From Candidatus Hydrogenedentota bacterium (lineage in GTDB: Bacteria; Hydrogenedentota; Hydrogenedentia; Hydrogenedentales; CAITNO01): a DNA stretch of 64,000 bases. Made by a program: the position numbers and the translations under genes. The notes under the pieces are model-generated. The model ran no database searches. It was not told the DNA's origin and saw only the letters and a program-made list of their open reading frames with translations. Positions 39,280-63,211 of this stretch are shown here, piece by piece. Numbering within the stretch: position 1 is the stretch's first letter; each line of letters starts with the position of its first letter. Where the stretch lies: contig JAGPFE010000016.1 of the NCBI GenBank assembly GCA_018056705.1, positions 370-64,369 on the forward strand, read 5' to 3'.

Positions 39280-40032
39280 TTATTCCAGCGCCGGCTTCCG
39301 TCCCAGGCACACGTAATCCGGCGAGTCCTCCGGGATGTACGGTTCCAGGACCATGCCGCCCCAGCGGGATTCGGGTAAAAGTCCAGTCGCGCGGGCCTGG
39401 GCCTCCAGAAACTCGGGATACCACAACCGGAGCAGGGTTTCCACCCGTTCCGCGGGCGTGTCCCGGGGTGGATCCCATCGTTCCACGGTGAGCAGCACGT
39501 TCAGGGAGATGTCCGTCGCTTCCTGGAATTGCCAGCGTTTTCTGATGGTGACCGGCATGCCGTTCAGCGTGGCATGTACTTCTCGATCGCGGTCCAAGCG
39601 CCAGGCTGTTCCCGCTCCATTCAGGAGTTGTGCCAGCAGGGCGCCACCCGGCGCGAGGACATCGGCTGCCCGTTGAAAAAAGCGCGTCACGTCATCCGGA
39701 GAGGCCAGCAGGGCGATTGAATTGCCCAGGCAGGTAACCAGGTCCCAGGGGCCGGATGGCGGGTCCAGCATGGATCCCTGAACCCACCGGATTGCCGGGT
39801 GATCCCGGATCGCGCGGGCTGCCCGCAGCATGGCCTCGCTGAGATCCACGGCCGTAACGGACGCGCCGTGGTCCGCGAAAAACCGGGCGTGTAATCCCGT
39901 GCCACAGGCCAGGTCAAGTACCCGCTGGCCGGGGCCCAGCGCGAGGAGGAGCAGGTTGCTTTCCCGCTCCACCCGCGCCGGCCCTCCGGCCAGCAGGTCG
40001 TACCATGCCGCCACGGCATCAAAGTCGCTCAT
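39280..40032 (-). CDS. class I SAM-dependent methyltransferase
   Basis: VLDLACGTG motif I and a downstream acidic motif II. Confidence 0.65.
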   Translation of the reverse strand: MSDFDAVAAWYDLLAGGPARVERESNLLLLALGPGQRVLDLACGTGLHARFFADHGASVTAVDLSEAMLRAARAIRDHPAIRWVQGSMLDPPSGPWDLVTCLGNSIALLASPDDVTRFFQRAADVLAPGGALLAQLLNGAGTAWRLDRDREVHATLNGMPVTIRKRWQFQEATDISLNVLLTVERWDPPRDTPAERVETLLRLWYPEFLEAQARATGLLPESRWGGMVLEPYIPEDSPDYVCLGRKPALE

Positions 40033-40038
40033 GCGGCA

Positions 40039-41688
40039 TTATCCGAGCATCGCGGCCAGGTCCTGCTCCGGGGTGCCGATCGGCGTCAGGCCAAACTGTT
40101 CCACGAGCACCTTGAGCACGTTCGGGCCGATGAAGGCGGGCAGGGAGGGTCCAATGCGCATGTTCCTGATGCCCAGGTACAGCAGGGTCAGCAGGATGCA
40201 TACCGCCTTCTGTTCGTACCACGACAGCACGATGGACAGGGGCAGGTCGTTCACGCCGCATTCGAAGGCATTCGCGAGGGCCACGGCGATCTGGATCGCG
40301 GAGTACGCGTCGTTGCACTGGCCAACGTCCAGCAGTCGGGGGATACCGCCGATGTCGCCGAAGTCCAGCTTGTTGAACCGGTACTTACCGCAGGCCAGCG
40401 TCAGGATCACGCAGTCGTCCGGCACAGACTGGGCCAACTGCGTGTAGTAATCCCGCCCGGGCTTGTTACCGTCGCAACCGCCAATGAGGAAGAACCGACG
40501 GATGGCACCGGCCTTGACGGCCTCGATGACCTTGTCCGCCACGCTCAGCACGGCGTTGCGGCCGAATCCCGTCAGGATCTTCTTTTCCGGGGCATCTTCG
40601 GTGAATCCCGGTTCGGCGAGAGCGGCCTCGATAACCGGCGTGAAATCGCGGCCCTCGACGTGGCGCACGCCCGGCCAGCGCACCAGGCCGCAGGTAAAGA
40701 TGCGGTGCTGATAACTCTGGCGGGGCCGTTGTATGCAGTTGGTCGTCATGAGGATGGCACCGGGAAACGCGTCGAACTCTGCCGCCTGGTCCTGCCACGC
40801 GCCGCCGTAATTGCCGACGAGGTGCGGATGTTTCTTCAGTTCGGGGTAACCATGGGCGGGGAGCATTTCCCCGTGGGTGTAGATGTTGATCCCCTTCCCG
40901 GCGGTCTGTTCGAGCAGGGCTTCCAGGTCCCGCAGGTCATGCCCCGACACCAGGATGCATTTGCCTTTCACCGGGGTGATCCGCACGGGGGTGGGTTCCG
41001 GGTGTCCGTACCGGCTGGTGTGGGCGTGGTCAAGCATCTCCATGACATGGAGATTGACCCGCCCGACTTCCAGCGCGCGAGAGGTCAGGGCATTGATATC
41101 CCGCGGATTATCTGCCAGGAAGGACAAGGTTTCGTGGGTGAAGGCGTAGACCTCCGGGTCTTCGCTGCCCAGCACCGCCGAGTGGTGGGCGTATGCCGCC
41201 ATGCCCTTGATACCGTAGAAGATCAGCTCCTGGAGACCGCCCGCGTCCTTGCCGAACCGTTCCAGGCGTTCTTCGATGCCCACCTTTCCACCCAGCCGCA
41301 CCATCTCTTCCTGGCTGTCGGGAATATCCGCCACGGCCGGACCGGTCAGGGTGGCGGGGGTCACGCCATTTTCGAGGCACAGCCGTTCATACAGGCCCCG
41401 GGCCCGTTCCCGGATTTCCACGCCCGCGCGGATCATGGCCGCCACGGCCGCCGGATCAAAGTTGACGTTGGTAACGGTGGTAAAGAGCGCGTCGTGCACA
41501 AACCGGTCGATGTCTATGTCCACGCCGCCCAGGCCGCGGGCCCGGTGCGCCCACTGGGCAATGCCCTCGGCCAGCCAGTTCAGCAGGTCCTGCAAGGCGG
41601 CCGTTTCCGGGTCCTTGCCGCACACGCCATACGACGTGCATCCGGTCATTCTCGACGTCTGTTCACATTGAAAGCAGAACATACCCAT
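40039..41688 (-). CDS. hcp: hydroxylamine reductase / hybrid-cluster protein
   Basis: N-terminal MFCFQCEQT cubane-cluster Cys motif and conserved hybrid-cluster ligands. 549 aa. Confidence 0.9.
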   Translation of the reverse strand: MGMFCFQCEQTSRMTGCTSYGVCGKDPETAALQDLLNWLAEGIAQWAHRARGLGGVDIDIDRFVHDALFTTVTNVNFDPAAVAAMIRAGVEIRERARGLYERLCLENGVTPATLTGPAVADIPDSQEEMVRLGGKVGIEERLERFGKDAGGLQELIFYGIKGMAAYAHHSAVLGSEDPEVYAFTHETLSFLADNPRDINALTSRALEVGRVNLHVMEMLDHAHTSRYGHPEPTPVRITPVKGKCILVSGHDLRDLEALLEQTAGKGINIYTHGEMLPAHGYPELKKHPHLVGNYGGAWQDQAAEFDAFPGAILMTTNCIQRPRQSYQHRIFTCGLVRWPGVRHVEGRDFTPVIEAALAEPGFTEDAPEKKILTGFGRNAVLSVADKVIEAVKAGAIRRFFLIGGCDGNKPGRDYYTQLAQSVPDDCVILTLACGKYRFNKLDFGDIGGIPRLLDVGQCNDAYSAIQIAVALANAFECGVNDLPLSIVLSWYEQKAVCILLTLLYLGIRNMRIGPSLPAFIGPNVLKVLVEQFGLTPIGTPEQDLAAMLG

Positions 41689-41718
41689 TGTATAAACCTC
41701 CTTTTGTTGTGGTTTGGG

Positions 41719-42579
41719 TCATCGGGTTGTTGTATGTTTACCGGCGGCCCCGGTGGCCCCGGTTGGGGTGACGTGATCGGGCGTGTCACGGACAGGGGTT
41801 GCCCAGGGTGACGGGTGTTCCTGGCGCCGCAGGATTTCTCCCCGGACGGAAACGATGACTTCTTCGATGGTCAGCGGGGACCGGGCGGCATTCCGGGCCT
41901 CCACGGCCAGCCGCGTCAGGCCCGCGCAGCAGGGAACTTCCATCCGGGCCACCACGCAGGATGCAGGACGCGCCTGCTGAAACAAGGTAGCCAGTTTCTC
42001 CAGGTATCCATCGGAGTCGTCCAGCTTGGGACAGGCGATGGCCAGGGCCCGGCCCCTGAGCAGCCGCTGGTGGAACGCGCCCAGCGCGAAGGCGGTGCAG
42101 TCCGCTGCCAGCAGCAGGTCGGCGCCCTGGTACTGGGGGGCCATGGAATAGACCAGGTGCAACTGAATCGGCCAGTGTCCCAGCGCTGAAGCCTCGTGAC
42201 CATTGCCGTTGTCCTGGTGATCAACCCTGGGTCTGGCGGGCTGGTTGAACGCGAAGGTCGCACTCCCGGGGCAGGGCGTCCGGCTGGGTCCCGCGGAAGG
42301 ACAGCCCGACTCGAAAGCTGCCGACGGGGAGGAGGTACCGTGGGCCTGAACCGCCGCCTCATCGAAGGGATCCGCCTCGCGGTATTCCAGGGACAGCGCG
42401 CCCGTGGGACAGGTTCCGAGGCAGGCACCCAGGCCATCGCAGAAATTTTCCCTGACCAGTTTCGCCTTGCCATCCACGATGGCGAGGGCGCCCTCGGCGC
42501 AGCCTACCACGCACTGACCGCATCCGTTGCACCGTTCTTCGTCGATCCGAATGACCAGTCGCCGGGTTTTCATAAGCAT
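41719..42579 (-). CDS. 4Fe-4S dicluster ferredoxin-domain protein, putative Hcp redox partner
   Basis: CNGCGQCVVGC and CDGLGACLGTCP motifs. Directly upstream of hcp on the same strand. Confidence 0.55.
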   Translation of the reverse strand: MLMKTRRLVIRIDEERCNGCGQCVVGCAEGALAIVDGKAKLVRENFCDGLGACLGTCPTGALSLEYREADPFDEAAVQAHGTSSPSAAFESGCPSAGPSRTPCPGSATFAFNQPARPRVDHQDNGNGHEASALGHWPIQLHLVYSMAPQYQGADLLLAADCTAFALGAFHQRLLRGRALAIACPKLDDSDGYLEKLATLFQQARPASCVVARMEVPCCAGLTRLAVEARNAARSPLTIEEVIVSVRGEILRRQEHPSPWATPVRDTPDHVTPTGATGAAGKHTTTR

Positions 42580-42630
42580 GCTCCCATGTGGGTCGCGACG
42601 CTTGTCGTCGCTCTCTGACCAGATTCTGCC

Positions 42631-42664
42631 GGTTTTTCCCGGGAAAAACCTTGACCCCCGTCAA
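42631..42664. promoter_or_regulatory. perfect 20-bp palindrome GGTTTTTCCCGGGAAAAACC abutting an FNR/CRP-type box TTGAC-N4-GTCAA
   Basis: Both are exact inverted repeats in the divergent intergenic region between the ferredoxin-hcp operon (-) and clpC (+). The box centre is ~78 bp upstream of the ferredoxin start codon. Confidence 0.4.
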
Positions 42665-42845
42665 ATTTTGTGATTTTTTTAAAAAAATTCGCTGGGCGGG
42701 AGGCGCCGGGGAAATTTGCCCGTTCATGCCGCCGTGCATTATGCTTATGTCAGCCTGGCCGCCAGGGTATGGGCCGGGAAATCTGTTCGGGCTGAAAAAC
42801 CTTAACGTTGCGGGCGGGATTTCTGTCCCGCCCGGGGCTGTGCAT

Positions 42846-45302
42846 ATGTGGGAACGCTTTACTGAACGGGCGAAACATGTCGTGGCCACGGCGCGGGAAG
42901 AGGCGGTGCGCCTGGGCAGCGAATACGTGCGTACGGAACACATCCTGCTGGGCCTGTGCAAGGAAACCGAGGGCGTGGCCGCGCGGGCCCTGGAAAACCT
43001 GGGCCTTTCACCGGAATCCATCATCGCGGAAATCGAAACCCAGGTGCGGCCTGGTGCCAGCAATATCTCCTCGGACGAGATTTCTTTCACCCCCCGGGCG
43101 AAAAAGGTGCTGGAGTTGTCCGTGGAGGAAGCCCGCCGGCTCGGGCATAACTACATTGGCACGGAACACATCCTGCTCGGGTTGCTCAAGGAAGGGGAAG
43201 GCATCGCCGCCAAGGTGCTTCAGGACATGAAGGTGGACCTGGGGCGGGTACAGGCCGAGATCCTGAAACTCGTGGGCGAGCAGGGTGGCGGTACGGGGGA
43301 GGCCAGGGCTGGCCGGCGTTCTAATACGCCCGCGCTGGACGCGTTCGGTCGGGATCTTACACAACTGGCCCGCGAAAACAAGCTGGACCCGGTGATCGGC
43401 CGGGAGGCCGAGATTGAACGGGTGATCCAGATTCTCAGCCGACGCGCGAAAAACAACCCCGTGCTGATCGGTGAGGCGGGCGTGGGCAAAACCGCCATCG
43501 TGGAAGGGCTCGCGCAGGCCATCGTGAATGGCGACGTGCCCGACCTGCTGCTGAACCGCCGCGTGCTGACCCTCGACCTGGCGGGCGTGGTGGCGGGCAC
43601 CAAGTACCGCGGCCAGTTCGAAGAACGCCTGAAGACCGTGATGAAGGAAATCCGGCGGGCGGACAACATCATCCTGTTCATCGACGAGTTGCACACCATC
43701 GTGGGTGCGGGGGCCGCCGAGGGGGCGGTGGACGCCGCCAACATTCTCAAGCCGGCGCTGGCCCGGGGGGAACTCCAGTGCATCGGCGCGACCACGATGG
43801 ACGAGTTCCGCAAGCACATCGAAAAGGACGCCGCGCTGGCCCGCCGGTTCCAGACCGTGATCGTTAACGCACCCTCGGTGGACATGACGATCCGGATTCT
43901 TCAGGGACTCAGGGATAAATACGAGGCCCATCACCGGGTCAAGTTTTCGGACGAAGCCATCGAGGCGGCCGCCCGCCTGGCCGACCAGTACATTACCGAT
44001 CGTTTCCTGCCGGACAAGGCGGTGGACGTGATCGATGAGGCCGGCGCGCGCGCCCGGCTGCAGATCACTACCCGGCCGCCCGAACTCAAGCAGCTCGAAC
44101 AGGAAATTGAACAGACCACCAAGGCCAAGGAAGAAGCCATCCGGTTGCAGGAATACGAAAAGGCCGCCAGCCTGCGCGACAAGGAACGCGGCCTGATCGC
44201 GCGACTGGAAGAGGCCCGGCGCGAATGGGAAAAGAGACGGGATTCCTCCGAAACCGTGGTGACGGCGGAAGACGTGGCGTATATCGTCTCCCGGATGACC
44301 GGCGTACCCCTGACGAAGATCGAGGAGGAAGAATCAGCCCGCCTGTTGCGCATGCGCGAAGAACTCCACAAGGTGGTGGTGGGCCAGGATGAAGCGGTTG
44401 ACGCCATTACCCGGGCGATTCAACGGTCCCGGGCGGGATTGCGCGACCGGAACCGGCCAGTGGGATCCTTCCTGCTGCTCGGCCCGACGGGCGTCGGGAA
44501 GACGTTGCTGGCCAAGGCCCTCGCGGAGTTCCTGTTCGGCAGTCGCGAGGCGCTCATCACCATCGACATGTCGGAATACATGGAAAAATTCGCCGTCTCC
44601 CGGCTGATGGGCGCGCCTCCCGGGTACATCGGTTACGATGAAGGGGGACAACTGACCGAACAGGTGCGTCGGCGTCCCTACTCGGTGGTGCTGTTCGATG
44701 AGATTGAAAAAGCGCACCCGGACGTGTTCAACGCCCTGCTGCAGGTCCTCGAAGAAGGACACATGACCGATGCTTCGGGGCGAAAGGTCGATTTCCGCAA
44801 CACGGTGGTCATGATGACGTCCAACGCGGGAGCCAAGCGGATCGGACGGACGGCCCCGCTCGGATTCCGCTCCGATGATGAAGGCGAAGAACACGGCCGC
44901 CTCCGGGACCGGGTGCTGGAAGAAGCGCGCAAGATTTTCAATCCCGAGTTCCTGAACCGGATCGATGAAATTGTCGTGTTCCACCGGTTGAACCGGGAGC
45001 ACCTGCTCAAGATCGTCGATATCGAGACGGCGGGCGTCGTGAACCGGTTGCAGGAACGGGGCATCCGTCTCGAACTGACCGAGGAAGCCCGGGATTTTCT
45101 GGTGCGGGAAGGCACCAGCGAAGAATATGGCGCGCGGCCATTGCGACGGGCCGTGCAGCAGTACCTGGAAGACCCGCTAGCGGAACTGCTGTTGCGGGGT
45201 GGAACAAAATCGGGAACGACCATCCTGGTCCGGCCCAGCGACATTGGCGACCGGCTGATGTTCGAGGCCCGGGAACCTGTCACAGAAGGGGTTCAGCATT
45301 GA
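42846..45302 (+). CDS. clpC: ATP-dependent Clp protease ATP-binding subunit ClpC
   Basis: Two Clp_N repeats, two AAA+ modules ([16 protein letters not shown]) and a UVR-like middle motif. 818 aa from ATG 42846. Confidence 0.9.
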
Positions 45303-52121: not shown

Positions 52122-52198
52122 GTGCCCATAGCTCAGTTGGATAGAGCGCTTGCCTCCGGAGCAAGAGGCCGCAGGTTCAAGTCCTGCTGGGCACGCCA
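52122..52198 (+). tRNA. tRNA-Arg (anticodon CCG)
   Basis: Cloverleaf folded by hand: acceptor GTGCCCA/TGGGCAC, anticodon loop CTCCGGA, T-loop TTCAAGT, 3' CCA encoded. TATAAT sits ~20 nt upstream. Confidence 0.9.
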
Positions 52199-52425
52199 TT
52201 TTCTTTTATACCCCCGCGCGACATGCGCGCGAATGATGGCCTGTCTTCCGCGCGAGAAGGGAGAACATACGGGAACCGCGTTTTTCCAGGATACCCTTCC
52301 CCCCCGCCTTGCCGGGAGTACGCGCGCCCGAAATCCGTTTTTTATAGAGTTGCGGTTTAATCGGAATTCTGATATGATTATAAAAGTGTAATTCAGATTT
52401 CAAGGGTCTAAGAAGGAGTGGAATC

Positions 52426-54744
52426 ATGGAATACGGGTGGTTTGGTCGACGGTTGAGGGTAGCATTGTTTCTGGCGCTGGCAGGCGTACTGCTGGCGCAG
52501 GGTGTCGCCGGCGCGGACCGGATTCCGCGTATCATGTTCGTCGGGGACAGCTGGTGCGGGTTTATGTTCGGTTTCCGGTCCATCAAGAAGGCTTTGGATG
52601 ATCCGGAATTCGCGTCTGATGGCTTATCCCGCTGGATCGAAACTGGCGCCAGCACGGCGATCATGGGCGCGAAGGCGTACGAGTACCTCTGGCCCCAGCG
52701 TCGGCAGGACGTGATCGACGCGCTGCAGGCTTTACCCACGGTGGACATCGTGGTGATGACTCTGGGTGGTAATGACTTTTCCGGTAGTTTCCCGGTGACC
52801 TTTCCGGGGGGGTACGTACGGGAGGTGGACTGGTACGACTGGTACCGGGAAAACCACGATGGAGATCCCAACAACGACTGGCCGGAATCCATCCTGCACA
52901 ATCAGTTCAAGAATGACATGCGCCAGATTATCCAGTACATTCTGGGCGTCAGGCCGGACATCAAGATTGCCCTGTGCGGTTATGATTTCACCTGCCGCAG
53001 GGTCAACGATCGGTGCAACGGCCTGTTGACCATCCCCGAGCAGACTGGCGGGCTGGTACGTTTCGAACAGGTCAAGCGGGAACTGGCCGAGGAATTTCCC
53101 GGGCGGGTGATCTACGTGCAGACGGCCGGCCTGATGCAGCACCATTTTGGCTATTTCACCAGCAACGAATGGGGCACGGGAACCAGCGGTCCGTGGCCCG
53201 CGCCGCGATCCCTGAGCGAGGTGGACGTGCCGCCGGGTGTGGCGCCGTTGCCGGGAGATCACCGGAACGGTTACACCCCGTGGCCGGGTGGCGATCCCAA
53301 CTGGCAGGACCCCCGGGCCGCGTATATCGATGATGATATTCACCTCGTCGAGGAAGGGTACGACGTGTTCGCCAAGCACATCGTGCGGACCATCGTGCGG
53401 GAGTGGCTTAATTACCCGCGGGCGCTGTACATCCTGCCCCAGGCGCCGTCGGGAAACACGCAGCAGTTCCGGGTGATCTTTTCGCATCCGGTTACGGGCG
53501 TGGACGTGACGGATTTCAGCGCGACGGCGGCCAAGGCGGTTTCCGTGCAATCGGTGACACAGGGATCGACGGCGGAAGAATGGGTGGTTACGGTCGCCCT
53601 CAACGGGGCTCTCGAGGCCCAGTTACAGGTGGAAGACGACGACACGATCGTCCGGAGTGACGACAACACGCTTCCCCTGGGTGGGCCCGGCGTGGGGAAC
53701 GGGGTGTATGCCTACAACGGCGAGTGGACCTTCACGGATCTGCTGCGGCCCGCCGATGACGATTTCGTGGGATCGCTCGAATACCTCAACACGGTGATGG
53801 AGCCCTACATCAAGACCTTTGTTCCCGACATCAGTTTCGCGCCGGATCGCTTCGACGTGAACGGCAATTTCGTCATGGACGGTGGCAGCATGCAGGAGCC
53901 CTACAAGATTCCGGGCAACGCGGTGCTTGAGTCCTACGAGTTCGGGCTGATCCGGTACTGCCTGGATCATCCGACCATCGACCTGTCCGGACGGGGTGGC
54001 TTAAAGGCGGCCGACGTGGTGGCGGCGTGGCAGAACAATATCGTGAAGGCGCAGGCCTGCCTGGGTGGTCTGGGTAGCATTGCCGATTCCTTCCTGCCCG
54101 GGCTGGACACGCTGGTAGCGGGATATTACACGCTTGGAGATGGGGATTCCACGTTCTTCGCGACCACCCTTCTGACCCTGCTGGCAGCCATTGATAACTT
54201 CCCCGTGGGGGTTACGGCTCCCGATCCGGCGGATTTCATCGGTTTTCCAGACCTGCTGTCCCGGACCGCCGACGCGGACAAGGATGGCTGGACGAACGAA
54301 CAAGAATACGCCTATTTCTACCCGGATGGTATCGAGGCGTACGCGGCTGCCGCGCTGGATCCGTCCCGACAGCCCAGGCGCGGCGTGGGGATGTACGAAG
54401 AGGGGGAACACGTGCGCCTGGCCTTGCTGGACCACCCCGCGTATGACAGCACGTTCCAGTGGTACAGGGACGGCGTGGCCCTTGCGGCGAAGAGCATGAA
54501 TGCAGGCGTCAACGAGCGATGCCTGGACCTGTTCCCCGTGACGGAAGCCGACGCGGGCAGTTACACCTGCGTGTACCAGGTGGGACAGGGTGTGGGCGTG
54601 AACCGTGTGCTGGTGAACCGCACCTACGGGCCGATTCAGATCCGCGTGGGGGCGACCATCCCCGCGGCGTCCGGTCTTGGCCTCCTGGCGCTGGGCGGCG
54701 TGCTGGCGGCCGTTGCCACGCGCCGGGCTCGCGGGTCCCGCTGA
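52426..54744 (+). CDS. secreted SGNH/GDSL hydrolase-domain protein with Ig-like domain and IPTL/PEP-CTERM-like C-terminal sorting signal
   Basis: Signal peptide, FVGDSW (GDSx block I) and GGND (block III), Ig-like DAGSYTC motif. C-terminus IPAASGLGLLALGGVLAAVATRRAR (motif, TM helix, Arg cluster). AAGGAG RBS. Confidence 0.6.
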   Translation: MEYGWFGRRLRVALFLALAGVLLAQGVAGADRIPRIMFVGDSWCGFMFGFRSIKKALDDPEFASDGLSRWIETGASTAIMGAKAYEYLWPQRRQDVIDALQALPTVDIVVMTLGGNDFSGSFPVTFPGGYVREVDWYDWYRENHDGDPNNDWPESILHNQFKNDMRQIIQYILGVRPDIKIALCGYDFTCRRVNDRCNGLLTIPEQTGGLVRFEQVKRELAEEFPGRVIYVQTAGLMQHHFGYFTSNEWGTGTSGPWPAPRSLSEVDVPPGVAPLPGDHRNGYTPWPGGDPNWQDPRAAYIDDDIHLVEEGYDVFAKHIVRTIVREWLNYPRALYILPQAPSGNTQQFRVIFSHPVTGVDVTDFSATAAKAVSVQSVTQGSTAEEWVVTVALNGALEAQLQVEDDDTIVRSDDNTLPLGGPGVGNGVYAYNGEWTFTDLLRPADDDFVGSLEYLNTVMEPYIKTFVPDISFAPDRFDVNGNFVMDGGSMQEPYKIPGNAVLESYEFGLIRYCLDHPTIDLSGRGGLKAADVVAAWQNNIVKAQACLGGLGSIADSFLPGLDTLVAGYYTLGDGDSTFFATTLLTLLAAIDNFPVGVTAPDPADFIGFPDLLSRTADADKDGWTNEQEYAYFYPDGIEAYAAAALDPSRQPRRGVGMYEEGEHVRLALLDHPAYDSTFQWYRDGVALAAKSMNAGVNERCLDLFPVTEADAGSYTCVYQVGQGVGVNRVLVNRTYGPIQIRVGATIPAASGLGLLALGGVLAAVATRRARGSR

Positions 54745-54768
54745 TAGGTTAACGGTAAATCAAAGAAA

Positions 54769-54815
54769 GGCTCCCGCCTGTTTCGAAGCGATTCGAAGAG
54801 GCGGGAGCCTTTTTT
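54769..54815. terminator. bidirectional Rho-independent terminator
   Basis: 10-bp stem GGCTCCCGCC/GGCGGGAGCC flanked by T-runs on both strands, between convergent genes. Confidence 0.6.
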
Positions 54816-54890
54816 GTCACGTCATCAAAAAAAAACGCCCATGGAACGGGCTTCCATCGGCGGTTTATCACGGTCATCGTAACAGCAACG

Positions 54891-55421
54891 TCAGGCCTCG
54901 GGAGGAGCGCCCTTGAGTCGTTCGGGATCGATGCTCGCCTGCCGCATGGCCTGGGCTTCGATCTGCTGCATCCGGGCGATGAAAATCTGCTGCAGTTCGG
55001 CCACGGTATCATTCAGCAGGGTTGCTTCACCCGGAGTCAGGTTGCCTTTCATCTTTTCCCGCAGCATGAGCAGCATTTCGATCGTCAGCCGGGCCTGGTC
55101 CAGGTTAACGACCACCCGGTCGGCGCCCTGCGAAATCATGCCAAGGGCAAACATGGCCTGCGTGGCCAGACTCCCCATGAGCATCTCGAAATAGGGATCA
55201 ACGTTACCTTCCGGGGCATCGGGTGCCCCGGTTGGGGCCGTTCGCGCGTCCGCGGGAGTCCTTGCATTACCAACTCCCCCGGTCGTGGCCGCTGACCCGG
55301 ATGATCCCGGCGCGTCCCGACCAGCGTCCGCGGCCAGACGACGAGCCAGTTCCTCCTTTTCCCGTTGTGCCCGGGCTTTCCAGTCTTCGTCCACGAATAG
55401 ATTTGGTCCGCTGTCGGCCAT
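54891..55421 (-). CDS. DUF1844 domain-containing protein
   Basis: LMGSLATQAMFALG...VNLDQARLTIEMLLMLREKMKGNLTPGEATLL matches the DUF1844 core. GGAGG RBS. Confidence 0.6.
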   Translation of the reverse strand: MADSGPNLFVDEDWKARAQREKEELARRLAADAGRDAPGSSGSAATTGGVGNARTPADARTAPTGAPDAPEGNVDPYFEMLMGSLATQAMFALGMISQGADRVVVNLDQARLTIEMLLMLREKMKGNLTPGEATLLNDTVAELQQIFIARMQQIEAQAMRQASIDPERLKGAPPEA

Positions 55422-55501
55422 GGAAAGACCTCCGCGTCAAACCGGTCCCGTGGCCGCGGACGGGATACGCTCCCGCCCCGGCCACGGGTTACCGGAACGC
55501 G

Positions 55502-55591
55502 TTACTTGTTCTTGTGCCGATTCGCGCGCCTGCGTTTCTTCCGCTTGTGCTTATTGATCTTCGCCTTGCGGACTTTTCTTCCGCCTGCCAT
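55502..55591 (-). CDS. 29-aa highly basic peptide (possible bS22-like small ribosomal/RNA-binding protein)
   Basis: MAGGRKVRKAKINKHKRKKRRRANRHKNK. AGGAGG RBS 8 nt upstream of the ATG. Lies between ndk and the DUF1844 gene on the same strand; too short to appear in the ORF track. Confidence 0.4.
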   Translation of the reverse strand: MAGGRKVRKAKINKHKRKKRRRANRHKNK

Positions 55592-55666
55592 CTGTCACCT
55601 CCTGGACGCGACAGCGTCCCTTTACGGAACGGGTTACGTTTTCAGACCGGGTTCCGGCAACTGGCG

Positions 55667-56119
55667 CTAGCGCGATCCGTCATCCTCCGGTAACGCGTAG
55701 TCCAGCAGTTCTTCCGGTTTGAAATACAAAGCAATTTCCCGCGCGGCCGTTTCAGGCGAATCGGACGCGTGGATGATGTTGCGCTGCTTGCTCAGGCTGA
55801 AATCCCCGCGAATCGTTCCCGGGTCCGCCTGGGCACTGTCGGTGGCTCCATTCATGCGGCGTACCACCGACACGGCGTCCCGTCCTTCCCACACCATCTG
55901 GACCGTGGGACCGGACGTTATGAACGCCACGAGGTCTTCGAAAAACGGTTTACCCTGGTGTTCGGCGTAATGGGTTTCCGCCATCTCTCTCGTCAGGCGT
56001 TGGAATTTCAGGCCGACCAGTTTCAGTCCCCGCCGTTCAAAACGGCGGATACATTCACCAACCAGGCCCCGCCCAACGCCGTCGGGCTTCACCATGACAA
56101 ATGTGCGTTCCACAGTCAT
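55667..56119 (-). CDS. ndk: nucleoside diphosphate kinase
   Basis: [15 protein letters not shown] start, NIIHASD active-site His region. 150 aa. Confidence 0.9.
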
Positions 56120-56230
56120 AAGAAACGGAAATGCCCTCTTTACACCGTTCCAAGGTTACTCGAGGACCCCTAGTTTAGCAAAAAAAAGCGCGTTTCCGCA
56201 AGTTCCCAAAAAGGATGGGCTGAGGCTGAA

Positions 56231-57979
56231 TCAGGGACAATCCCTTTGCACCTCGACTTCTCGGGCTATCAGGGCGGGAATGTGAATCGAGCAGGAATCG
56301 GAGTTAAGGGGATTTCCGGTACATTCCAGCACGCGAGGAAAAAGGGTGGTGTCCGCGTCGATGAACGTGACGCCCGTGGCTAATGGGCCGAGGTCCGCGA
56401 CCTGGTTGTCGCTGATGTCAAGATGCCGAAGTTTATTCAGGCCGGACAGGGGAGAGACGTCTACAACCTGGTTCCCCGCCAGGTACAGGGCCTGGAGGTT
56501 GCGGGCCGCTTCCAATCCTTGCAATGACGTGATGCCCATGTTAGGAATGTCCAGGGATGCGATGTTCAGCATGTTCTGTCGCGTGACAGGCGTGGCAGGG
56601 TCGGTAATGTTGAACAAACCCCGGATGAAACTCGACAGTGTCGTGTCGGTAATGGTCACGGGATCATCGCATCCTCCTGTCGCCAGCGTGAAGAACACGG
56701 TGGAGCCGGGAAGCATTGACGTGCCCGACGCGGGGGTTTGTGTCGCCACGATATCCGGGGGGAAGATCGGACTGCAGGTGTAAGACATTACGGGAACCAG
56801 TCCGACAGACTGGAGGGCGCTTTCCGCGTCATTTCGCGTCATGCCGACGAGATGCGGAACGGGTACGGGGCATGGTCCGGTGGAAATTTCGAGGTCCACC
56901 ACGGCTCCTGGCATGACAACCGACCCGCCGATCGGGGACTGGTTGGCAACGCTGTCTGCGGCATGTACATTACTGCAGGCCGTCGTGACGGTTCCGACGG
57001 TCAAGCCTACATTCGCGAGGAGATCCCGGGCGGTTTGCTCTGAAAGATGGACCAGGTTTGGCACGACCACGGGACACGGACCCGCGCTCACGACCAGGTG
57101 AACCACCGATCCTTCCAGCACGTTGCTTCCGGCAATTGGATCCTGGGTGATGACGGCATCCACGGTAGTGTTATTGTCACACCGCGTGGAAATACTCGCG
57201 CCAAGGTTTAAACCCTGTAGCGTGAAAGTGGCAGTTCCCATGTCCACGTTTGACAGGTCGGGCACGGATACACAGGATCCCGCCGCAAAGTCAAAGTCGA
57301 CGGCGGTGCCCAGGGTAACCTGTGTTGCCGCCGCGGGGGACTGATGAATCACCGTGTCCAGGGGATCGGTGTTACTGCAGGCGGCGTTCGCGGTCCCAAC
57401 GGTAAGGCCAGCGGCGGTGATGGCGCTTTCGGCCTCGCCCCGGCTCATGCCCGAAAGGTTCGGCACCGCCGTGATCACGGGACAAGGCCCGGAGGACAAG
57501 GTAAAGTCCACGATGGAACCCGTGGTAACAGAGATGCCTGTACCGGGGTTTTGAGAAGCCACGGTGTCCGGTGCCGCGGTGTCACTGCAGGCGGTACTTA
57601 CCGATCCAACGACGAGGCCAGCGGCGGTGATGGCGCTTTCGGCCTCGCCCCGGCTCATGCCCGAAAGGTTCGGCACCGCCGTGATTACGGGACAAGGCCC
57701 GGAGGATATTTCCAGGTCGACCGCGGTCCCTTTTCGGACCCGGATTCCCCCCGCGGGCTGTTGCGTTATGACGCTTCCCGCGGGCACCGCGTCGTGACAG
57801 CGAAGGCTGATCTGGCCCACCTGTAAGCCCGCCCCGGTAATGGCGGTTTCGGCCTCGACCCGCGCAAGCCCCATGACATCGGGGGTTTTCGGCTTACAGC
57901 CCGTGGCGATCAGTACCAGCCCGGAAAGAACGACCCATCTACCCCGCCGCGTGGTCCAGAAACTCCCCATGAATTTCAT
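56231..57979 (-). CDS. lipoprotein with ~6 tandem PASTA domains and a C-terminal leucine-rich-repeat region
   Basis: Lipobox LIATGC. Repeated ~70-aa PASTA modules (VPNLSGMSRGEAESAITAAGLxVG...Q.P..G......V.L..S.GPCP). LRR segment LQALYLAGNQVVDVSPLSGLNKLRHLDISDNQV. Confidence 0.65.
   Translation of the reverse strand: MKFMGSFWTTRRGRWVVLSGLVLIATGCKPKTPDVMGLARVEAETAITGAGLQVGQISLRCHDAVPAGSVITQQPAGGIRVRKGTAVDLEISSGPCPVITAVPNLSGMSRGEAESAITAAGLVVGSVSTACSDTAAPDTVASQNPGTGISVTTGSIVDFTLSSGPCPVITAVPNLSGMSRGEAESAITAAGLTVGTANAACSNTDPLDTVIHQSPAAATQVTLGTAVDFDFAAGSCVSVPDLSNVDMGTATFTLQGLNLGASISTRCDNNTTVDAVITQDPIAGSNVLEGSVVHLVVSAGPCPVVVPNLVHLSEQTARDLLANVGLTVGTVTTACSNVHAADSVANQSPIGGSVVMPGAVVDLEISTGPCPVPVPHLVGMTRNDAESALQSVGLVPVMSYTCSPIFPPDIVATQTPASGTSMLPGSTVFFTLATGGCDDPVTITDTTLSSFIRGLFNITDPATPVTRQNMLNIASLDIPNMGITSLQGLEAARNLQALYLAGNQVVDVSPLSGLNKLRHLDISDNQVADLGPLATGVTFIDADTTLFPRVLECTGNPLNSDSCSIHIPALIAREVEVQRDCP
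57406..57715. repeat. 210-bp-period near-identical tandem duplication inside the PASTA-repeat gene
   Basis: A ~100-bp block (GGCCAGCGGCGGTGATGGCGCTTTCGGCCTCGCCCCGGCTCATGCCCGAAAGGTTCGGCACCGCCGTGAT[C/T]ACGGGACAAGGCCCGGAGGA) occurs at 57406-57505 and 57616-57715 with one mismatch. Confidence 0.65.
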
Positions 57980-58154
57980 GTTTACCTCCCCGGCCTCGGA
58001 ATTTCGGTCCTCGCCCTTGTTCCGTTGGCCTCTGCTCGCGCGCCCATGCGTTCAACCCCATTATACCACGTGTTCTTGACGAGGCATCCGAGGAGAGTGA
58101 ACCGGGCCGGATTATCACCACAACTACAAAATGTGATAAACTACGCCGTACCGG

Positions 58155-58231
58155 GGGCGGTTAGCTCAGTTGGTCAGAGCGCCTGCCTTACACGCAGGAG
58201 GTCGCAGGTTCGAGCCCTGCACCGCCCACCA
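58155..58231 (+). tRNA. tRNA-Val (anticodon TAC)
   Basis: Acceptor GGGCGGT/ACCGCCC, anticodon loop CTTACAC, T-loop TTCGAGC, CCA encoded. Confidence 0.9.
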
Positions 58232-58262
58232 TTTAACCAATGCTCTATTCGTAAAACCTTAC

Positions 58263-58306
58263 CGGTGTGCGCGTCCATCACCATGGATCGCACACCGTTC
58301 TTTATT
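58263..58306 (+). terminator. Rho-independent terminator after tRNA-Val
   Basis: 9-bp stem CGGTGTGCG/CGCACACCG, followed by TTCTTTATT. Confidence 0.5.
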
Positions 58307-58672
58307 GATGTGGGCTTCTTATGATGTGTCTTACCTGGTACCGTGCCGTATTCAACAAGTTTCTGATCATATATTCTGTTTTTTCAAATTCCGGTCCGTC
58401 TCTGTTCTCGCGCCCTTTTATTCGCTGTTAACCACAATAGGCAGGGGTGGATGGAGCCAGGTAAATGCCCGGAATGATTTTTTCCAAAGGATCTGGACGC
58501 ACCGCACAAGGAGGACGGCAGGCACGACGGATGTCCTGTTGGTCCTTGCGCGGCAGGGCCTGAGCGGATAGAATGACTTTCGCGCACAGCCCGCCCGGGT
58601 TGCAAAAAGCGCGGCGCCGTGGTGGAGGTAATCGAACCAGGCGCGACGGCACGTGTAAAAGGAATCTGGACC

Positions 58673-59914
58673 ATGGAAGACGACGCAGTCGTTTCACGTC
58701 GGACGATGCTTGCGGCGGGCGCGGCAGGATTGGCGGGGGTGTCTGCCTTCGGCGCGGAGGTTCCGCCCGCCGTCGCGCCGGTGTTCTCCGTGCGGGAGTT
58801 TGGCGCGAGGGGGGACGGCGTCGCCGATGATACGGAATCGGTTCAGGTAGCGGTGGATGCCGCCGTGAAGGCCAAGGGGGGCCGGGTGCATTTCCCCTCC
58901 GGCTCCTACCGGCTCACCAAGACCATCATCATTGCTTCGTCGGACCGCCTGGACCTCACGGGAGACGGTTTCAGTTCTGTGCTGCTGCACGCGGGGCCGG
59001 AGCACTGTCTGGCGTGGCAGGAAGGAAGTGCCTGCCGCGAGTCGTCCGTGCGCGACCTGTGCATCGCCGCCGCCGGGCAGAGCAAGGACCCCGGGACCGC
59101 TGCCATCGCGTGTCTCGGTGGCGTGGAGCGGTCTCTCTTCTCCCACCTGCTGCTCACCGGCGGGGATATCCGCATGGGCAGCGGTATCCTCACGCGCGGG
59201 GTGGCTGACACGACGACCCTGATCCAGTGCGTCATGTGGGGCGTCACCGGGACGGGCCTCGAAGTGGCCCGGGGTAGCGAGGTACGCATCCTCGGAGGCC
59301 GGATCATCGGGTTTACGCGGGACGAGCACCACAGCGTGGGCGTGGCCATCACGGGGAACAACGGCGGGGTCCACATCCTCACCACGGACATCATCGGCCT
59401 GGGCACGGCGGTGAAAATCGGCGGCGGGCCGGGCGCGCCGTCCAACCGGGAGATATTCATCACCCACGCGACAATAGACAGCTGCACCCACGGCATCCAC
59501 CAGACGGACAATGCCTACACCAGCATCGCGGGATGCTGGGCGGCCTCCTGCGACGAGGAACAGATCCTCGTGGAGGGAAGGGGCGCAATCCTCGCCGTGG
59601 CCGGGGGGACCATCTTCAACGGCGGCGCCTACGGCAAACCGGGTGGGCACCACGGCATGGTCGTACGCGGCGGCTCCTTCACCCTATCCGGGCTCACCAT
59701 CCGCCACAACAAGGGGACGGGTCTCCTCGTTGAGGGGAACGTGCGCGACTACGCGGTCACCGGCTGCCGCATCGCCGACAACGGCCGCGGCGTGGTCCTG
59801 GGTGGGAATAACTTTGTCTTCGCCAACAACACCCTCGCCCGTAACGGCGTCCAGATCGAGGACAACGGCGGTTCCAACAAAAACATATCGGGAAACATCC
59901 TGACCGACAGGTAA
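58673..59914 (+). CDS. Tat-exported right-handed beta-helix (pectate-lyase-fold) protein
   Basis: SRRTMLAAGAAGLAG Tat motif. FGARGDGVADDTESVQ is the N-terminal motif typical of Pectate_lyase_3/beta-helix glycosidases. Repeated G-rich beta-helix coils. Confidence 0.6.
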   Translation: MEDDAVVSRRTMLAAGAAGLAGVSAFGAEVPPAVAPVFSVREFGARGDGVADDTESVQVAVDAAVKAKGGRVHFPSGSYRLTKTIIIASSDRLDLTGDGFSSVLLHAGPEHCLAWQEGSACRESSVRDLCIAAAGQSKDPGTAAIACLGGVERSLFSHLLLTGGDIRMGSGILTRGVADTTTLIQCVMWGVTGTGLEVARGSEVRILGGRIIGFTRDEHHSVGVAITGNNGGVHILTTDIIGLGTAVKIGGGPGAPSNREIFITHATIDSCTHGIHQTDNAYTSIAGCWAASCDEEQILVEGRGAILAVAGGTIFNGGAYGKPGGHHGMVVRGGSFTLSGLTIRHNKGTGLLVEGNVRDYAVTGCRIADNGRGVVLGGNNFVFANNTLARNGVQIEDNGGSNKNISGNILTDR

Positions 59915-60119
59915 GACGTTTCCTTTCGTACGGGCCAGAAGGCGGGTGACGCCGCGCCCTTTTTCTTCGAGGCATGAGCGTATCCGCATTGCTCCGCCCA
60001 TGTTGCGGCGACGGTTCGGAAAGCGCGTCGTGGGGAAGGAACGTTGTCTGAACAGAAACCGATAGGGGTATTTACTTGATTCCTCCCCCGAAGAAGTAGT
60101 GGTTATGTCATGGGTAAGG

Positions 60120-60412
60120 ATTAACCGCGCTTCTGGATAAATTTCCGGTGTCGACTCATTGACGAGATCCCATGCGTCTACGTATGACCGGGTGAAGGCC
60201 CCCTCTTCAGCAATGTACTCAAGAATGCGTTTCCGCAATTGCGGCAAGTCTTCGCGCAAAGACTCTCCCCAGGGCTGCAGGTATTCGCGTCCGCGCCAGA
60301 CCATGCAAGGTCCCAGACGTGCCCCCTTCTCTTTGAGGCATTTCAGCGCCGCAAGGGTCTTTTCGCGCGTGAAACCCGGACCATAAGCGCCATGCCAGGC
60401 GATCCACTGCAA
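60120..60412 (-). pseudogene. GH10 (endo-xylanase family) gene remnant
   Basis: ORF fragment with MVWRGREYLQPW and KRILEYIAEEGAFTRSYVDAWDLVNE (the GH10 WDVVNE acid/base region). It degenerates immediately afterwards. The surrounding 59.9-60.8 kb is lower-GC with no intact ORF. Confidence 0.4.
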
Positions 60413-60790
60413 GTCTTTTTCAAGAACAGCACAATGGACAATTTGCGCACGTTTTCCTCGTAGCGATGTGGTCCGGTTCCTTTCCGGTAATGCGGTCCGC
60501 CGTCATCCAGGCGCCCCACAGAAAAGCGTGTCGCGTCATCTCGACATGTACAGACACATTGGACAAGGGCTTTCCACCGGCATCTTCGACACGCGTCACG
60601 AGATCGGCTTTGCGAAGCTGCTCAATCCGTTGTTCCGCCTTCCGTCAGGTATCCTCTAATCCAACCGCCTCCGCTGTCGCGCTCCCTGGAGCGACATAAG
60701 AACGATCAAGCCCAAGCCTTTTCGGAAAAGACCGGATGGGCCATCTGTCTTATTTCCCGTACAAATATCCGCGTGCGGCAGCCCGTTCTC

Positions 60791-62137: not shown

Positions 62138-62542
62138 TCTCCGTGTTGAATGTTTTTGTGAGGGGTAGCCTGTCCCCAGGCACTCCACCAGGTGGGCTCC
62201 CCGGTCCTCCGAATCCTTGCGATTGATGTTCCAGAGCAGCGCCTACTGATCCTTAATACAGTGTAGATAAATACTCGGTGGTCTGGGCAATGTTCTCAGG
62301 GTAACTGTCTCATAACCGTCACGCGCGAACATCTCGCGCGCGCCATCCACGATTCGTTCAGGGCCTCACGCTTCCGCTCGCGGCGCGCCTTGGACCTGTT
62401 CTCCCTTTTATGTTTGAAACACCCTTTACAGTATGGCACAGGTTATAGCAGTTTTCAATCCATTTGCCAATTACGACTATTTCGGATGTGATTCTGGTCG
62501 ACTCGACGTGCATATGGCACCATACCCGTCGCGCCGTGGTTG

Positions 62543-62610
62543 TCGATCCCCAGTGCCGCCGGCTTGAACGGCGCCCGCCCGGTCAATCCCCCGTGCCGCC
62601 GGCTTGAACG
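62543..62610 (+). repeat. two-copy 28-bp direct repeat TC(G/A)ATCCCC(A/C)GTGCCGCCGGCTTGAACG
   Basis: Copies at 62543-62570 and 62583-62610, spaced 40 bp, in the ~630-bp non-coding region upstream of the tRNA operon. Confidence 0.4.
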
Positions 62611-62689
62611 TGACGGCCGTGGATGCTTCGGGGGAGGATCCCACTTGCCAGGAGATGCCCGGTACGGGTATAAATGCAAGTGAGCAGTG

Positions 62690-62722
62690 TTGACATCAAC
62701 GGTCACTTTCTGGTATGTTATA
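62690..62722 (+). promoter_or_regulatory. sigma70 promoter TTGACA-18-TATGTT for the tRNA-tuf operon
   Basis: Consensus -35 TTGACA at 62690-62695, -10 TATGTTATA from 62714. A CCGCGC/GCGCGG hairpin plus T7 run (62732-62760) lies between the promoter and the first tRNA. Confidence 0.4.
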
Positions 62723-62766
62723 CCGACCTGACCGCGCCGGGCGCGGGGAGGTATTTTTTTCGGGCC

Positions 62767-62842
62767 GCTGGCGTAGCTCAGTTGGCAGAGCAGCTGACTT
62801 GTAATCAGCAGGTCGGGGGTTCGATTCCCTTCGCCAGCTCCA
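62767..62842 (+). tRNA. tRNA-Thr (anticodon TGT)
   Basis: Acceptor GCTGGCG/CGCCAGC, anticodon loop CTTGTAA, T-loop TTCGATT, CCA encoded. Confidence 0.9.
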
Positions 62843-62894
62843 GCGGACGAACCAGTTGAAACATGAAGTCAATCCGCCAGGGCGGTTGGCGCGT

Positions 62895-62980: not shown

Positions 62981-63030
62981 TGCACATAGAACATAGCGCG
63001 TGGCGAGCGTGCGACGCGATTGCCCGCGAC

Positions 63031-63135: not shown

Positions 63136-63211
<76 letters not shown>

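What the first reader, a model, noticed from the sequence alone, without database searches (positions are those of the whole stretch)
42631..42688. Stack of three perfect palindromes, including an FNR/CRP-family TTGAC-N4-GTCAA box, in the hcp / clpC divergent promoter region
Within 60 bp there are three elements: a perfect 20-bp palindrome GGTTTTTCCCGGGAAAAACC (42631-42650), a perfect TTGAC-CCCC-GTCAA box (42651-42664) and an A/T palindrome ATTTTTTTAAAAAAAT (42673-42688). The TTGAC-N4-GTCAA architecture is the half-site spacing used by FNR/Dnr/HcpR-type CRP-family regulators. These regulators typically control hcp in response to NO or nitrosative stress. The box sits ~78 bp upstream of the ferredoxin-hcp operon start, which is consistent with a class II site near -41.5. 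No CRP/FNR-family regulator gene is in the window, so the cognate regulator must be encoded elsewhere.
Basis: partly seen in the sequence, partly recalled or inferred. Interest (0 to 1): 0.55.

Follow-up and report, generated by a model that had tools for sequence, protein, structure and literature searches.

The report
HcpR-type activator site at hcp promoter
The TTGAC-N4-GTCAA box is an ordinary binding site for an HcpR-like (FNR/CRP-family) activator, placed as in many other bacteria to switch on the nitrosative-stress operon frdX-hcp, and the two palindromes beside it are mostly lineage-specific by-products of conserved A/T-rich promoter flanks.

Summary
All three elements are in the sequence exactly as described. 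They lie between frdX-hcp (minus strand) and clpC (plus strand) in a Candidatus Hydrogenedentes MAG.

The TTGAC-CCCC-GTCAA box matches the published HcpR1 motif (wyTTGACnnnnGTCAArw) for hcp and frdX promoters. Exact copies occur upstream of hcp or frdX-hcp in many distantly related genomes.

In 47 non-redundant promoters with this box, a -10-like hexamer starts exactly 22 nt after the box in 26. This puts the box centre at -41.5, the class II activator position. In the window the -10 is CAGAAT (42628-42623), the predicted start is A at 42616, and there is no usable -35.

In relatives, the CRP/FNR genes next to hcp carry the HcpR1 recognition helix (P-E-x-x-S-R). The window itself encodes no CRP/FNR protein.

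The flanking palindromes are not conserved as palindromes:
- Only the GG start of the 20-mer recurs widely; a T-rich stretch after it recurs in some close relatives.
- Only the A7 half of the A/T palindrome matches a conserved feature, an A-tract at -64..-58 that resembles an UP element.
- A sister strain already carries changes in both palindromes.

This is a new member of a known kind, of low interest.

The parts
42651..42664 (-). HcpR1-type (FNR-like) box TTGAC-N4-GTCAA. It reads TTGACGGGGGTCAA in the frdX direction. Its centre at 42657.5 is -41.5 from the predicted start.
   Evidence: Sequence. Exact match expected 0.03 per window. Conserved in orthologous promoters. Published motif.
42631..42650 (.). 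Perfect 20-bp palindrome that fills promoter positions -34 to -15 (the spacer between box and -10, -34 to -13, continues with CC at 42629-42630). Only its box-proximal GG (-34/-33) is widely conserved; the T-rich stretch that follows recurs in some close relatives.
   Evidence: GG at -34/-33 in 30 and 41 of 47 promoters. Palindrome broken or replaced in relatives.
42623..42628 (-). Predicted -10 hexamer CAGAAT, at -12 to -7.
   Evidence: A hexamer of TAnnnT type starts exactly 22 nt after the box in 26 of 47 promoters. Relatives have CAAAAT, CACAAT or TAAAGT at the same offset.
42616..42616 (-). Predicted transcription start (A, preceded by C). This is an inference, not a measurement.
   Evidence: C at -1 in 26 of 47 and A at +1 in 24 of 47. 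GTCAGA is conserved in L081.
42674..42680 (-). A7 tract in the frdX orientation, at -64 to -58. This is the conserved, UP-element-like half of the A/T palindrome.
   Evidence: A-rich run at -65 to -59, with A or T at -60 in 45 of 47 promoters. AAAAAAATCACAAAATTTGA is identical in L170, where clpC is not the neighbour.
42673..42688 (.). Perfect 16-bp A/T palindrome AT7A7T. The distal T7 half (-65 to -71) is not conserved.
   Evidence: T7A8 in L161, T5-C-A7 in L170, other A/T tracts in L081.
42581..42585 (-). Shine-Dalgarno sequence GGGAG, 7 nt before ATG 42573.
   Evidence: Sequence. The gene is called at 284 aa in relatives.
41719..42573 (-). frdX-type ferredoxin-like gene (2x[4Fe-4S] N-terminus plus an AF_0155 domain), first gene of the operon.
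   Evidence: Pfam and NCBIfam. AF_0155 hit in relatives.
40039..41688 (-). hcp, hybrid cluster protein / hydroxylamine reductase.
   Evidence: Prismane E = 5e-171. NF003658 scores 800.9 bits against a cut-off of 367.
39280..40032 (-). SAM-dependent methyltransferase, third gene of the conserved frdX-hcp-methyltransferase operon.
   Evidence: Synteny in L161-L177.
42846..45302 (+). clpC, divergent neighbour. It is not part of the regulated unit.
   Evidence: Its own conserved promoter-like blocks lie at 42713-42749. The box promoter persists in L170-L172 without clpC.

Best explanation
The region is the promoter of the frdX-hcp-methyltransferase operon on the minus strand, and it is most likely activator-dependent. 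A dimer of an HcpR-like CRP/FNR-family regulator, encoded outside the window and presumably responsive to NO or nitrite, binds the TTGAC-N4-GTCAA box centred at -41.5. It recruits RNA polymerase by the class II mechanism to a promoter that has a -10 (CAGAAT) but no -35. Transcription starts near 42616.

The A7 tract at -64 to -58 acts like an UP element or bending tract upstream of the activator. The GG just after the box belongs to the extended site. The perfect symmetry of the 20-bp and 16-bp palindromes is lineage-specific and is probably not a separate functional signal.

Shown here: the sequence, its conservation, the fixed spacing to the -10, and the HcpR1-type recognition helices of the linked regulators in relatives. 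Inferred: the transcription start, activation rather than repression, the identity and signal of the regulator, and the UP-like role of the A tract.
For: - Motif: identical to the published HcpR1 consensus for hcp and frdX promoters.
- Association with hcp: all 14 exact boxes in 80 hcp loci lie upstream of hcp or of a gene preceding it, none elsewhere. By my own arithmetic, about 0.6 exact matches would be expected by chance in roughly 600 kb. Of 77 frdX loci, 21 carry the box.
- Spacing: a -10-like hexamer starts 22 nt after the box in 26 of 47 non-redundant promoters, against 0-5 at every other offset tested.
- Position profile: TA at -12/-11 and T at -7, GG at -34/-33, A or T at -60 in 45 of 47, C at -1 and A at +1. 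The window matches most of these; it has C instead of T at -12.
- Orthologous promoters from Hydrogenedentes relatives (Hcp 99.8%, 94%, 93%) and from more distant hcp relatives (Hcp 74%) keep the box, the 22-nt spacing and the -10, while the rest diverges.
- The promoter persists in L170-L172, where clpC is not the neighbour.
- CRP/FNR genes next to hcp in L046, L049, L062 and L056 have P-E-x-x-S-R and no FNR-type cysteine cluster. P/S at CRP position 180 is the signature reported for HcpR1.
- The organism uses canonical sigma-70 promoters, for example TTGTCA-N17-TACAAT at 15182-15210.
Against: - No regulator gene is in the window, and the rest of the genome could not be searched.
- The transcription start is not measured.
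- The box's inner spacer (GGGG in the frdX direction) departs from the ensemble preference yTAr, so affinity may be lower than for typical sites.
- The -10 has C instead of T at -12.
- DNA alone cannot tell HcpR from another FNR/DNR-type paralogue.
- In D. desulfuricans, an HcpR2 protein is proposed to repress hcp.
Confidence: 0.8

Rival explanations
1. The box is bound by a different CRP/FNR paralogue, such as an oxygen-sensing FNR or a DNR/NnrR-type regulator, rather than by an HcpR orthologue. The class II architecture is the same but the signal differs.
For: FNR-family sites share the TTGA-N6-TCAA core. Many related promoters have TTGAC...ATCAA or TTGAT...GTCAA variants. The paper notes that hcp is under FNR, NsrR, NorR or DNR control in other lineages.
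Against: Both half-sites have C at position 5, as in the HcpR1 consensus and unlike the FNR half-site TTGAT. The regulators physically linked to such boxes in relatives have the HcpR1-type helix and lack the N-terminal FNR cysteine cluster.
Confidence: 0.1
2. The 20-bp palindrome is an operator for a second, lineage-specific regulator, for example a repressor sitting between the activator site and the -10. That would give dual control, as with FNR plus NsrR at E. coli hcp.
For: It is the longest perfect palindrome in 64 kb and exactly fills the space between box and -10. L081 and L170 carry different small palindromes in the same spacer that differ by a paired G:C to A:T change. Spacer inverted repeats with arms of 4 or more occur in 23 of 47 promoters, against 12.7 in shuffles.
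Against: The register shifts by 5.5 bp between lineages, and L175 and L176 have no palindrome. A sister strain already carries a symmetry-breaking A-to-T change. Arms of 5 or more are not enriched, and control windows from the same promoters give 9-16 of 47. There is no other copy in the window, and by my recollection it matches no operator consensus (not searched).
Confidence: 0.1
3. The box is a repressor site: a CRP-family protein occludes the promoter until NO inactivates it, as in the HcpR2 model for D. desulfuricans.
For: This model is described in PMC5701242. A site overlapping the -35 region could block RNA polymerase.
Against: There is no usable -35 hexamer here or in the ensemble; -35 to -30 reads AGGnnn. 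The rigid -41.5 spacing is the established hallmark of class II activation. Repressor sites do not need such phasing.
Confidence: 0.06
4. The stack regulates clpC, or is a shared bidirectional control element.
For: It lies in the divergent intergenic region.
Against: clpC has its own conserved promoter-like blocks about 50-100 bp to the right, at 42713-42749. The box, A tract and -10 persist in L170-L172, where the upstream neighbour is a different gene. The box would sit near -95 of the putative clpC start.
Confidence: 0.03

Closest known systems
HcpR1-type sites (wyTTGACnnnnGTCAArw) upstream of hcp and frdX in Geobacter, Desulfuromonas, Desulfotalea and two cyanobacteria (Rodionov et al. 2005, PMC1274295)
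   Same: Same inverted repeat and the same target genes (frdX and hcp). The FNR-like regulators linked to the box in relatives have P at CRP position 180 and E at 181.
   Different: The host is a Candidatus Hydrogenedentes MAG. The regulator is not adjacent. The inner spacer GGGG is atypical. A SAM methyltransferase is the third gene of the operon.
Class II FNR/CRP-dependent promoters of E. coli (site at -41.5, no -35; established knowledge)
   Same: The box centre lies 41.5 bp from the predicted start, there is a -10 but no -35, and an A/T tract lies upstream of the activator.
   Different: The half-site is TTGAC, not TTGAT or TGTGA. The start site and the activation are inferred here, not measured.
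Desulfovibrio HcpR (TGTGA-N6-TCACA, CRP-like) controlling hcp-frdX
   Same: Same regulon core and the same protein family.
   Different: The DNA motif differs (G versus T at position 3, and N6 versus N4 as written). The Desulfovibrio proteins keep R180.
E. coli hcp-hcr promoter (FNR activation plus NsrR repression; enterobacterial NsrR and FNR sites are mentioned in PMC1274295)
   Same: An FNR-family site in front of hcp. It would be the model if the 20-bp palindrome were a second operator.
   Different: By my recollection the 20-mer does not resemble an NsrR-type site (A/T-rich 11-1-11 repeat; not scanned here). The 20-mer is not conserved.
UP element / phased A-tracts upstream of promoters (established knowledge)
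   Same: An A-rich run at about -65 to -59 is conserved across 47 promoters, the window included.
   Different: It lies upstream of an activator site rather than directly next to a -35. Contact with the alpha subunit C-terminal domain is untested.

Membership tests
HcpR1-type (FNR-like) regulator binding site | Inverted repeat TTGAC-N4-GTCAA (consensus wyTTGACnnnnGTCAArw) | tested here: met
   Both arms match exactly at 42651-42664. In the frdX direction the flanks are AT...GG, so one flank fits wy and the other starts with r.
HcpR1-type (FNR-like) regulator binding site | Located upstream of hcp and/or frdX | tested here: met
   The box lies 84.5 bp (78.5 bp to the alternative ATG) upstream of frdX, the first gene of frdX-hcp.
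HcpR1-type (FNR-like) regulator binding site | Conserved at orthologous promoters while the surrounding sequence diverges | tested here: met
   The box is kept in L161, L081, L170, L175 and L176 (Hcp 99.8% down to 74%).
HcpR1-type (FNR-like) regulator binding site | The genome encodes a cognate HcpR with S or P at CRP position 180 and E at 181 | not testable with these tools
In relatives the linked regulators meet the feature: P-E-x-x-S-R in L046, L049, L062 and L056.
HcpR1-type (FNR-like) regulator binding site | Induction of the target by NO or nitrite | not testable with these tools
   This needs expression data.
Class II CRP/FNR-dependent promoter | Activator site centred near -41.5 relative to the transcription start | tested here: inconclusive
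   The feature is met relative to the predicted -10 and start. The hexamer lies 22 nt after the box in 26 of 47 promoters and in the window. No start site was measured.
Class II CRP/FNR-dependent promoter | Weak or absent -35 hexamer | tested here: met
   The -35 position reads AGGTTT. The consensus scan found no sigma-70 promoter in the region, and the ensemble shows AGGnnn there.
E. coli-type FNR site (oxygen sensor) | Half-sites TTGAT / ATCAA, and a regulator with an N-terminal cysteine cluster | tested here: not met
   Both half-sites have C at position 5. The linked regulators in relatives lack the cysteine cluster. The window's own regulator is unknown.
Second operator (NsrR, MerR or other) at the 20-bp palindrome | A dyad conserved in sequence and register at orthologous promoters, or repeated at other loci | tested here: not met
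   The dyad is broken in L161, shifted and different in L081 and L170, and absent in L175 and L176. No other copy is in the window.
UP-like A/T element | An A/T-rich tract at a fixed position upstream of the core promoter or activator | tested here: met
   A or T at -60 in 45 of 47 promoters, with an A run at -65 to -59. The window has A7 at -64 to -58. Its function is untested.

The most novel reading that the evidence does not exclude
The perfect 20-bp palindrome, and the smaller dyads that relatives carry in the same spacer, could be operators for a second, fast-evolving regulator sitting between the HcpR site and the -10. That would make hcp dual-controlled in Hydrogenedentes. More generally, dyad symmetry in the spacer could be a hidden feature of HcpR-dependent promoters.
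Probability: 0.1. Interest if true: 0.4.

Novelty: new member of a known kind. Interest (0 to 1): 0.2.

Why it matters
It extends a regulon signature predicted in 2005 for delta-proteobacteria and cyanobacteria to an uncultured phylum, Hydrogenedentes. The 47-promoter comparison also gives a sharper promoter model: box at -41.5, GG at -34/-33, an A tract near -60, and no -35. That model could be used to scan MAGs for nitrosative-stress regulons. For this window it mainly allows confident annotation of the frdX-hcp promoter. It also warns against reading function into the two flanking palindromes.

Tried and rejected
- Exact-product look-ups for the window's FrdX (286-aa version) and Hcp found nothing. 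Relatives were reached through the Hcp 90% cluster instead.
- P0007 had no DNA on file.
- The generic promoter and terminator scan found nothing in 42400-43000. This is expected for a promoter without a -35. It also excludes a terminator reading of the palindromes.
- Rfam found only tRNAs in the window, none near the site.
- I looked by eye for sigma-54, CtsR, MerR-type and LysR-type readings of the palindromes and for a sigma-70 promoter using TTGACC or TTGACG as -35. Spacings or half-sites did not fit, and no tool support was found.
- Two-mismatch boxes elsewhere in the window are at or below chance. The pair at 15074 and 15108 precedes a FapA gene, so I dismissed it.
- A test for general dyad symmetry in the spacers gave only a weak signal.
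- A global alignment of the whole intergenic region with L081 misaligned the frdX-proximal half because of an insertion of about 90 bp. I replaced it with a box-anchored alignment.
- I ran no further search on finding a Hydrogenedentes HcpR, because the output carries no taxonomy filter.

Full report
**Observation.** GGTTTTTCCCGGGAAAAACC lies at 42631-42650 and is a perfect 10+10 palindrome. TTGAC-CCCC-GTCAA lies at 42651-42664; it has perfect 5-bp arms, but the spacer is not self-complementary. ATTTTTTTAAAAAAAT lies at 42673-42688 and is a perfect 8+8 palindrome.

An exact TTGACNNNNGTCAA is expected 0.03 times in the window. There is no one-mismatch copy. Two-mismatch copies are at or below chance, 10 against about 20. 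The 20-mer is the longest perfect palindrome in the 64 kb, where 0.135 of that length are expected. It has no second copy even with three mismatches. The region is identical in three loci from independent samples, L163-L165, so it is not an assembly artefact.

**Context.** The minus strand carries three genes. The first is a ferredoxin-like gene with two [4Fe-4S] motifs and, in relatives, an AF_0155 domain, so it is of the frdX type. The second is hcp, at 40039-41688, matching Prismane at E = 5e-171 and the NCBIfam hydroxylamine reductase model at 801 bits against a cut-off of 367. The third is a SAM methyltransferase. The gaps between these genes are 30 and 6 nt. clpC (42846-45302) and bamA follow on the plus strand.

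The Hcp 90% cluster names the organism as Candidatus Hydrogenedentes / Hydrogenedentota, from a 67-kb MAG contig. The true frdX start is probably ATG 42573, not 42579. A GGGAG lies 7 nt upstream of 42573, and relatives call a 284-aa product starting MKTR/MKSR.

**What the box is.** Rodionov et al. 2005 derived the FNR-like consensus wyTTGACnnnnGTCAArw for HcpR in delta-proteobacteria other than Desulfovibrio and in two cyanobacteria. They found it upstream of hcp and frdX paralogues. They tied it to a change of CRP residue R180 to Ser or Pro in the recognition helix.

I tested the association independently.
- In 80 GTDB loci encoding Hcp relatives (61-68% identity), all 14 exact boxes lie upstream of hcp. 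They sit either 66-200 nt before it or 880-1580 nt before it, in front of a preceding gene as in the window (about -970). None lies elsewhere. The recurrent one-mismatch hits inside hcp are a conserved coding motif, GTGACCAAYGTCAA.
- In 77 metagenomic loci encoding FrdX relatives, 21 have the box within 400 nt upstream.
- Six GTDB loci have a CRP/FNR gene beside hcp. Those in L046, L049, L062 and L056 read P-E-T/S-x-S-R at CRP positions 180-185 and lack the FNR N-terminal cysteine cluster, which is the HcpR1 signature. L015 keeps R180.

**Promoter architecture.** I collected 47 non-redundant promoters carrying the box (one mismatch or fewer, coding matches removed). A hexamer matching TATAAT in at least 4 of 6 positions, with A2 and T6, starts exactly 22 nt after the box in 26 of them. 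Every other offset from 10 to 35 gives 0-5. This places the box centre at -41.5 if the start lies 7 nt after the hexamer.

The per-position profile shows the following:
- T at -12 in 34 of 47, A at -11 in 45 of 47, T at -7 in 33 of 47.
- C at -1 in 26 of 47 and A at +1 in 24 of 47.
- GG at -34/-33 in 30 and 41 of 47.
- No -35 hexamer.
- A preferred inner spacer yTAr.
- An A-rich run at -65 to -59, with A or T at -60 in 45 of 47.

The window fits this model. The box occupies -48 to -35, GG is at -34/-33, and CAGAAT is at -12 to -7 (42628-42623). C and A occupy -1 and +1, which puts the start at 42616. A7 lies at -64 to -58 (42674-42680) and C at -54. Its deviations are the GGGG inner spacer and C at -12.

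The organism does use canonical sigma-70 promoters elsewhere, for example TTGTCA-N17-TACAAT at 15182-15210. The generic scan found no sigma-70 promoter at the hcp site, as expected for an activator-dependent promoter.

**Orthologous promoters.** Through the Hcp cluster I fetched syntenic loci, and I also fetched two more distant hcp relatives.

| Locus group | Hcp identity | Upstream neighbour |
|---|---|---|
| L161/L162 | 99.8% | clpC (L161; L162 neighbour not identified) |
| L081, L166-168, L174 | about 94% | clpC (ClpC 92%, FrdX 73% in L081) |
| L170-L172 | 93% | a different gene, not clpC |
| L175, L176/L177 | 74% | other genes |

 From the box onward these align without gaps. All keep the box, the 22-nt spacing and a -10 (CAGAAT, CAAAAT, CACAAT or TAAAGT). 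WIN and L081 also share GTCAGA at the predicted start.

L170 keeps AAAAAAATCACAAAATTTGA identically although clpC is not its neighbour. The A tract and the box therefore belong to the frdX-hcp promoter, not to clpC. clpC has its own conserved blocks, AAATTTGCCC-N17-TTATGCTTAT at 42713-42749.

**The two flanking palindromes.** Neither is conserved as a palindrome.
- By my comparison of the sequences printed, the sister strain L161/L162 differs from the window at six intergenic positions. Three fall inside the 58-bp stack and none in the box, GG or -10. They are A to T in the right arm of the 20-mer, which leaves a 14-bp core; A7 to A8; and A to C at -52.
- The 94% and 93% lineages have different small dyads in the spacer: CCGGA-T-TCCGG and CGAA-T-TTCG. 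Both are centred 16 nt after the box, against 10.5 in the window. They differ from each other by a paired G:C to A:T change. L175 and L176 have none.
- What recurs is the box-proximal GG and, in some relatives, a following T-rich stretch: GGTTTTT in WIN and L176, GGTATTT in L175.
- Across the 47 promoters, inverted repeats with arms of 4 or more in the spacer are somewhat more frequent than in shuffles (23 against 12.7 +/- 2.9) or in control windows (9-16). Arms of 5 or more are not enriched. I record this as weak and unexplained.
- For the A/T palindrome, only the box-proximal A7 coincides with the conserved A run. The distal T7 lies in non-conserved positions.

**Mechanism.** The best-supported reading, at confidence about 0.8, is a class II promoter dependent on an HcpR-like regulator. 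The regulator dimer binds at -41.5, an A tract upstream gives UP-like contact or bending, and RNA polymerase is recruited to a promoter with only a -10. The result is induction of frdX-hcp-methyltransferase under nitrosative stress. The signal (NO or nitrite), the regulator's identity, the start site and the activating direction are inferred.

The rivals are listed with their evidence:
- Another FNR/DNR paralogue binds the box (0.1).
- The 20-mer is a second operator (0.1).
- The box acts in repression, as proposed for D. desulfuricans HcpR2 in PMC5701242, (0.06).
- The stack controls clpC (0.03).

**Regulator.** No CRP/FNR protein is encoded in the window. A profile built from CRP, FNR and five hcp-linked regulators gives a best E-value of 4.6. 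The remainder of the genome could not be searched with the caps available.

**Novelty and interest.** The motif, its targets and the family are already described. A literature search found no paper linking Hydrogenedentes with the hybrid cluster protein. This is a new member of a known kind. The interest is low, because the finding is explained by a known regulon signature. The only open point is the modest, lineage-specific dyad symmetry in the spacer.

Noticed in passing
window 42811-42834 (+), just before clpC ATG 42846: A GC-rich stem-loop, CGGGCGGGA-TTTCTG-TCCCGCCCG, ends 11 nt before the clpC start. In L081 and L166 the stem is GGGCAGGA...TCCTGCCC with a different loop, which is one compensatory G:C to A:T change. 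It may be a structure in the clpC 5' UTR; whether it acts as a thermometer or stabiliser is unknown.
   Followed up: partly
window 42713-42749 (+): The blocks AAATTTGCCC-N17-TTATGCTTAT are conserved between the window and the 94% lineage. They are the likely clpC promoter (-35 TTGCCC, with an atypical -10 region).
   Followed up: partly
window 42573 vs 42579 (-): The mechanical ORF for frdX starts at ATG 42579 (MLMKTRR). GGGAG lies 7 nt before ATG 42573, and relatives aa (MKTRR). The start is therefore probably 42573.
   Followed up: yes
window 39280-42573 (-); L161-L177: A frdX-hcp-SAM-methyltransferase gene order is conserved in Hydrogenedentes relatives and in the 74% Hcp relatives L175-L177. 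Rodionov et al. 2005 mention only hcr or frdX as operon partners of hcp. The role of the methyltransferase is unknown.
   Followed up: partly
L001-L177, 47 non-redundant promoters aligned on the box: The extended promoter consensus has C at -49, an inner spacer yTAr, GG at -34/-33, C at -54, an A run at -65 to -59 (A or T at -60 in 45 of 47), G at -15/-14, and CA at the start.
   Followed up: yes
hcp coding sequence, about +219 nt from the start, in 11 GTDB loci (L004, L018, L020 and others): GTGACCAAYGTCAA is a conserved coding motif that differs from the box by one base. It would be a recurrent false positive in genome-wide HcpR-box scans. The window's own copy (41462-41475) has two mismatches.
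   Followed up: yes
L081 1042-1053 and L170 spacer; 47-promoter set: Small dyads centred 16 nt after the box in two lineages differ by a paired change. There is a weak overall excess of 4-bp-arm inverted repeats in the spacers. This is unexplained.
   Followed up: partly
window 15182-15210 (+): A near-consensus sigma-70 promoter, TTGTCA-N17-TACAAT, lies upstream of a FapA-family gene (15278-16690). It shows that this organism uses canonical -35 and -10 elements.
   Followed up: no
L170-L172 (Hcp 93% lineage): The upstream neighbour of frdX-hcp is a small DUF2726-like gene in an A/T-rich stretch, not clpC. A rearrangement breakpoint therefore lies just upstream of the A tract, and the promoter stays intact.
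   Followed up: partly
window 52122-63208 (+): Six tRNA genes, four of them clustered at 62767-63208.
   Followed up: no
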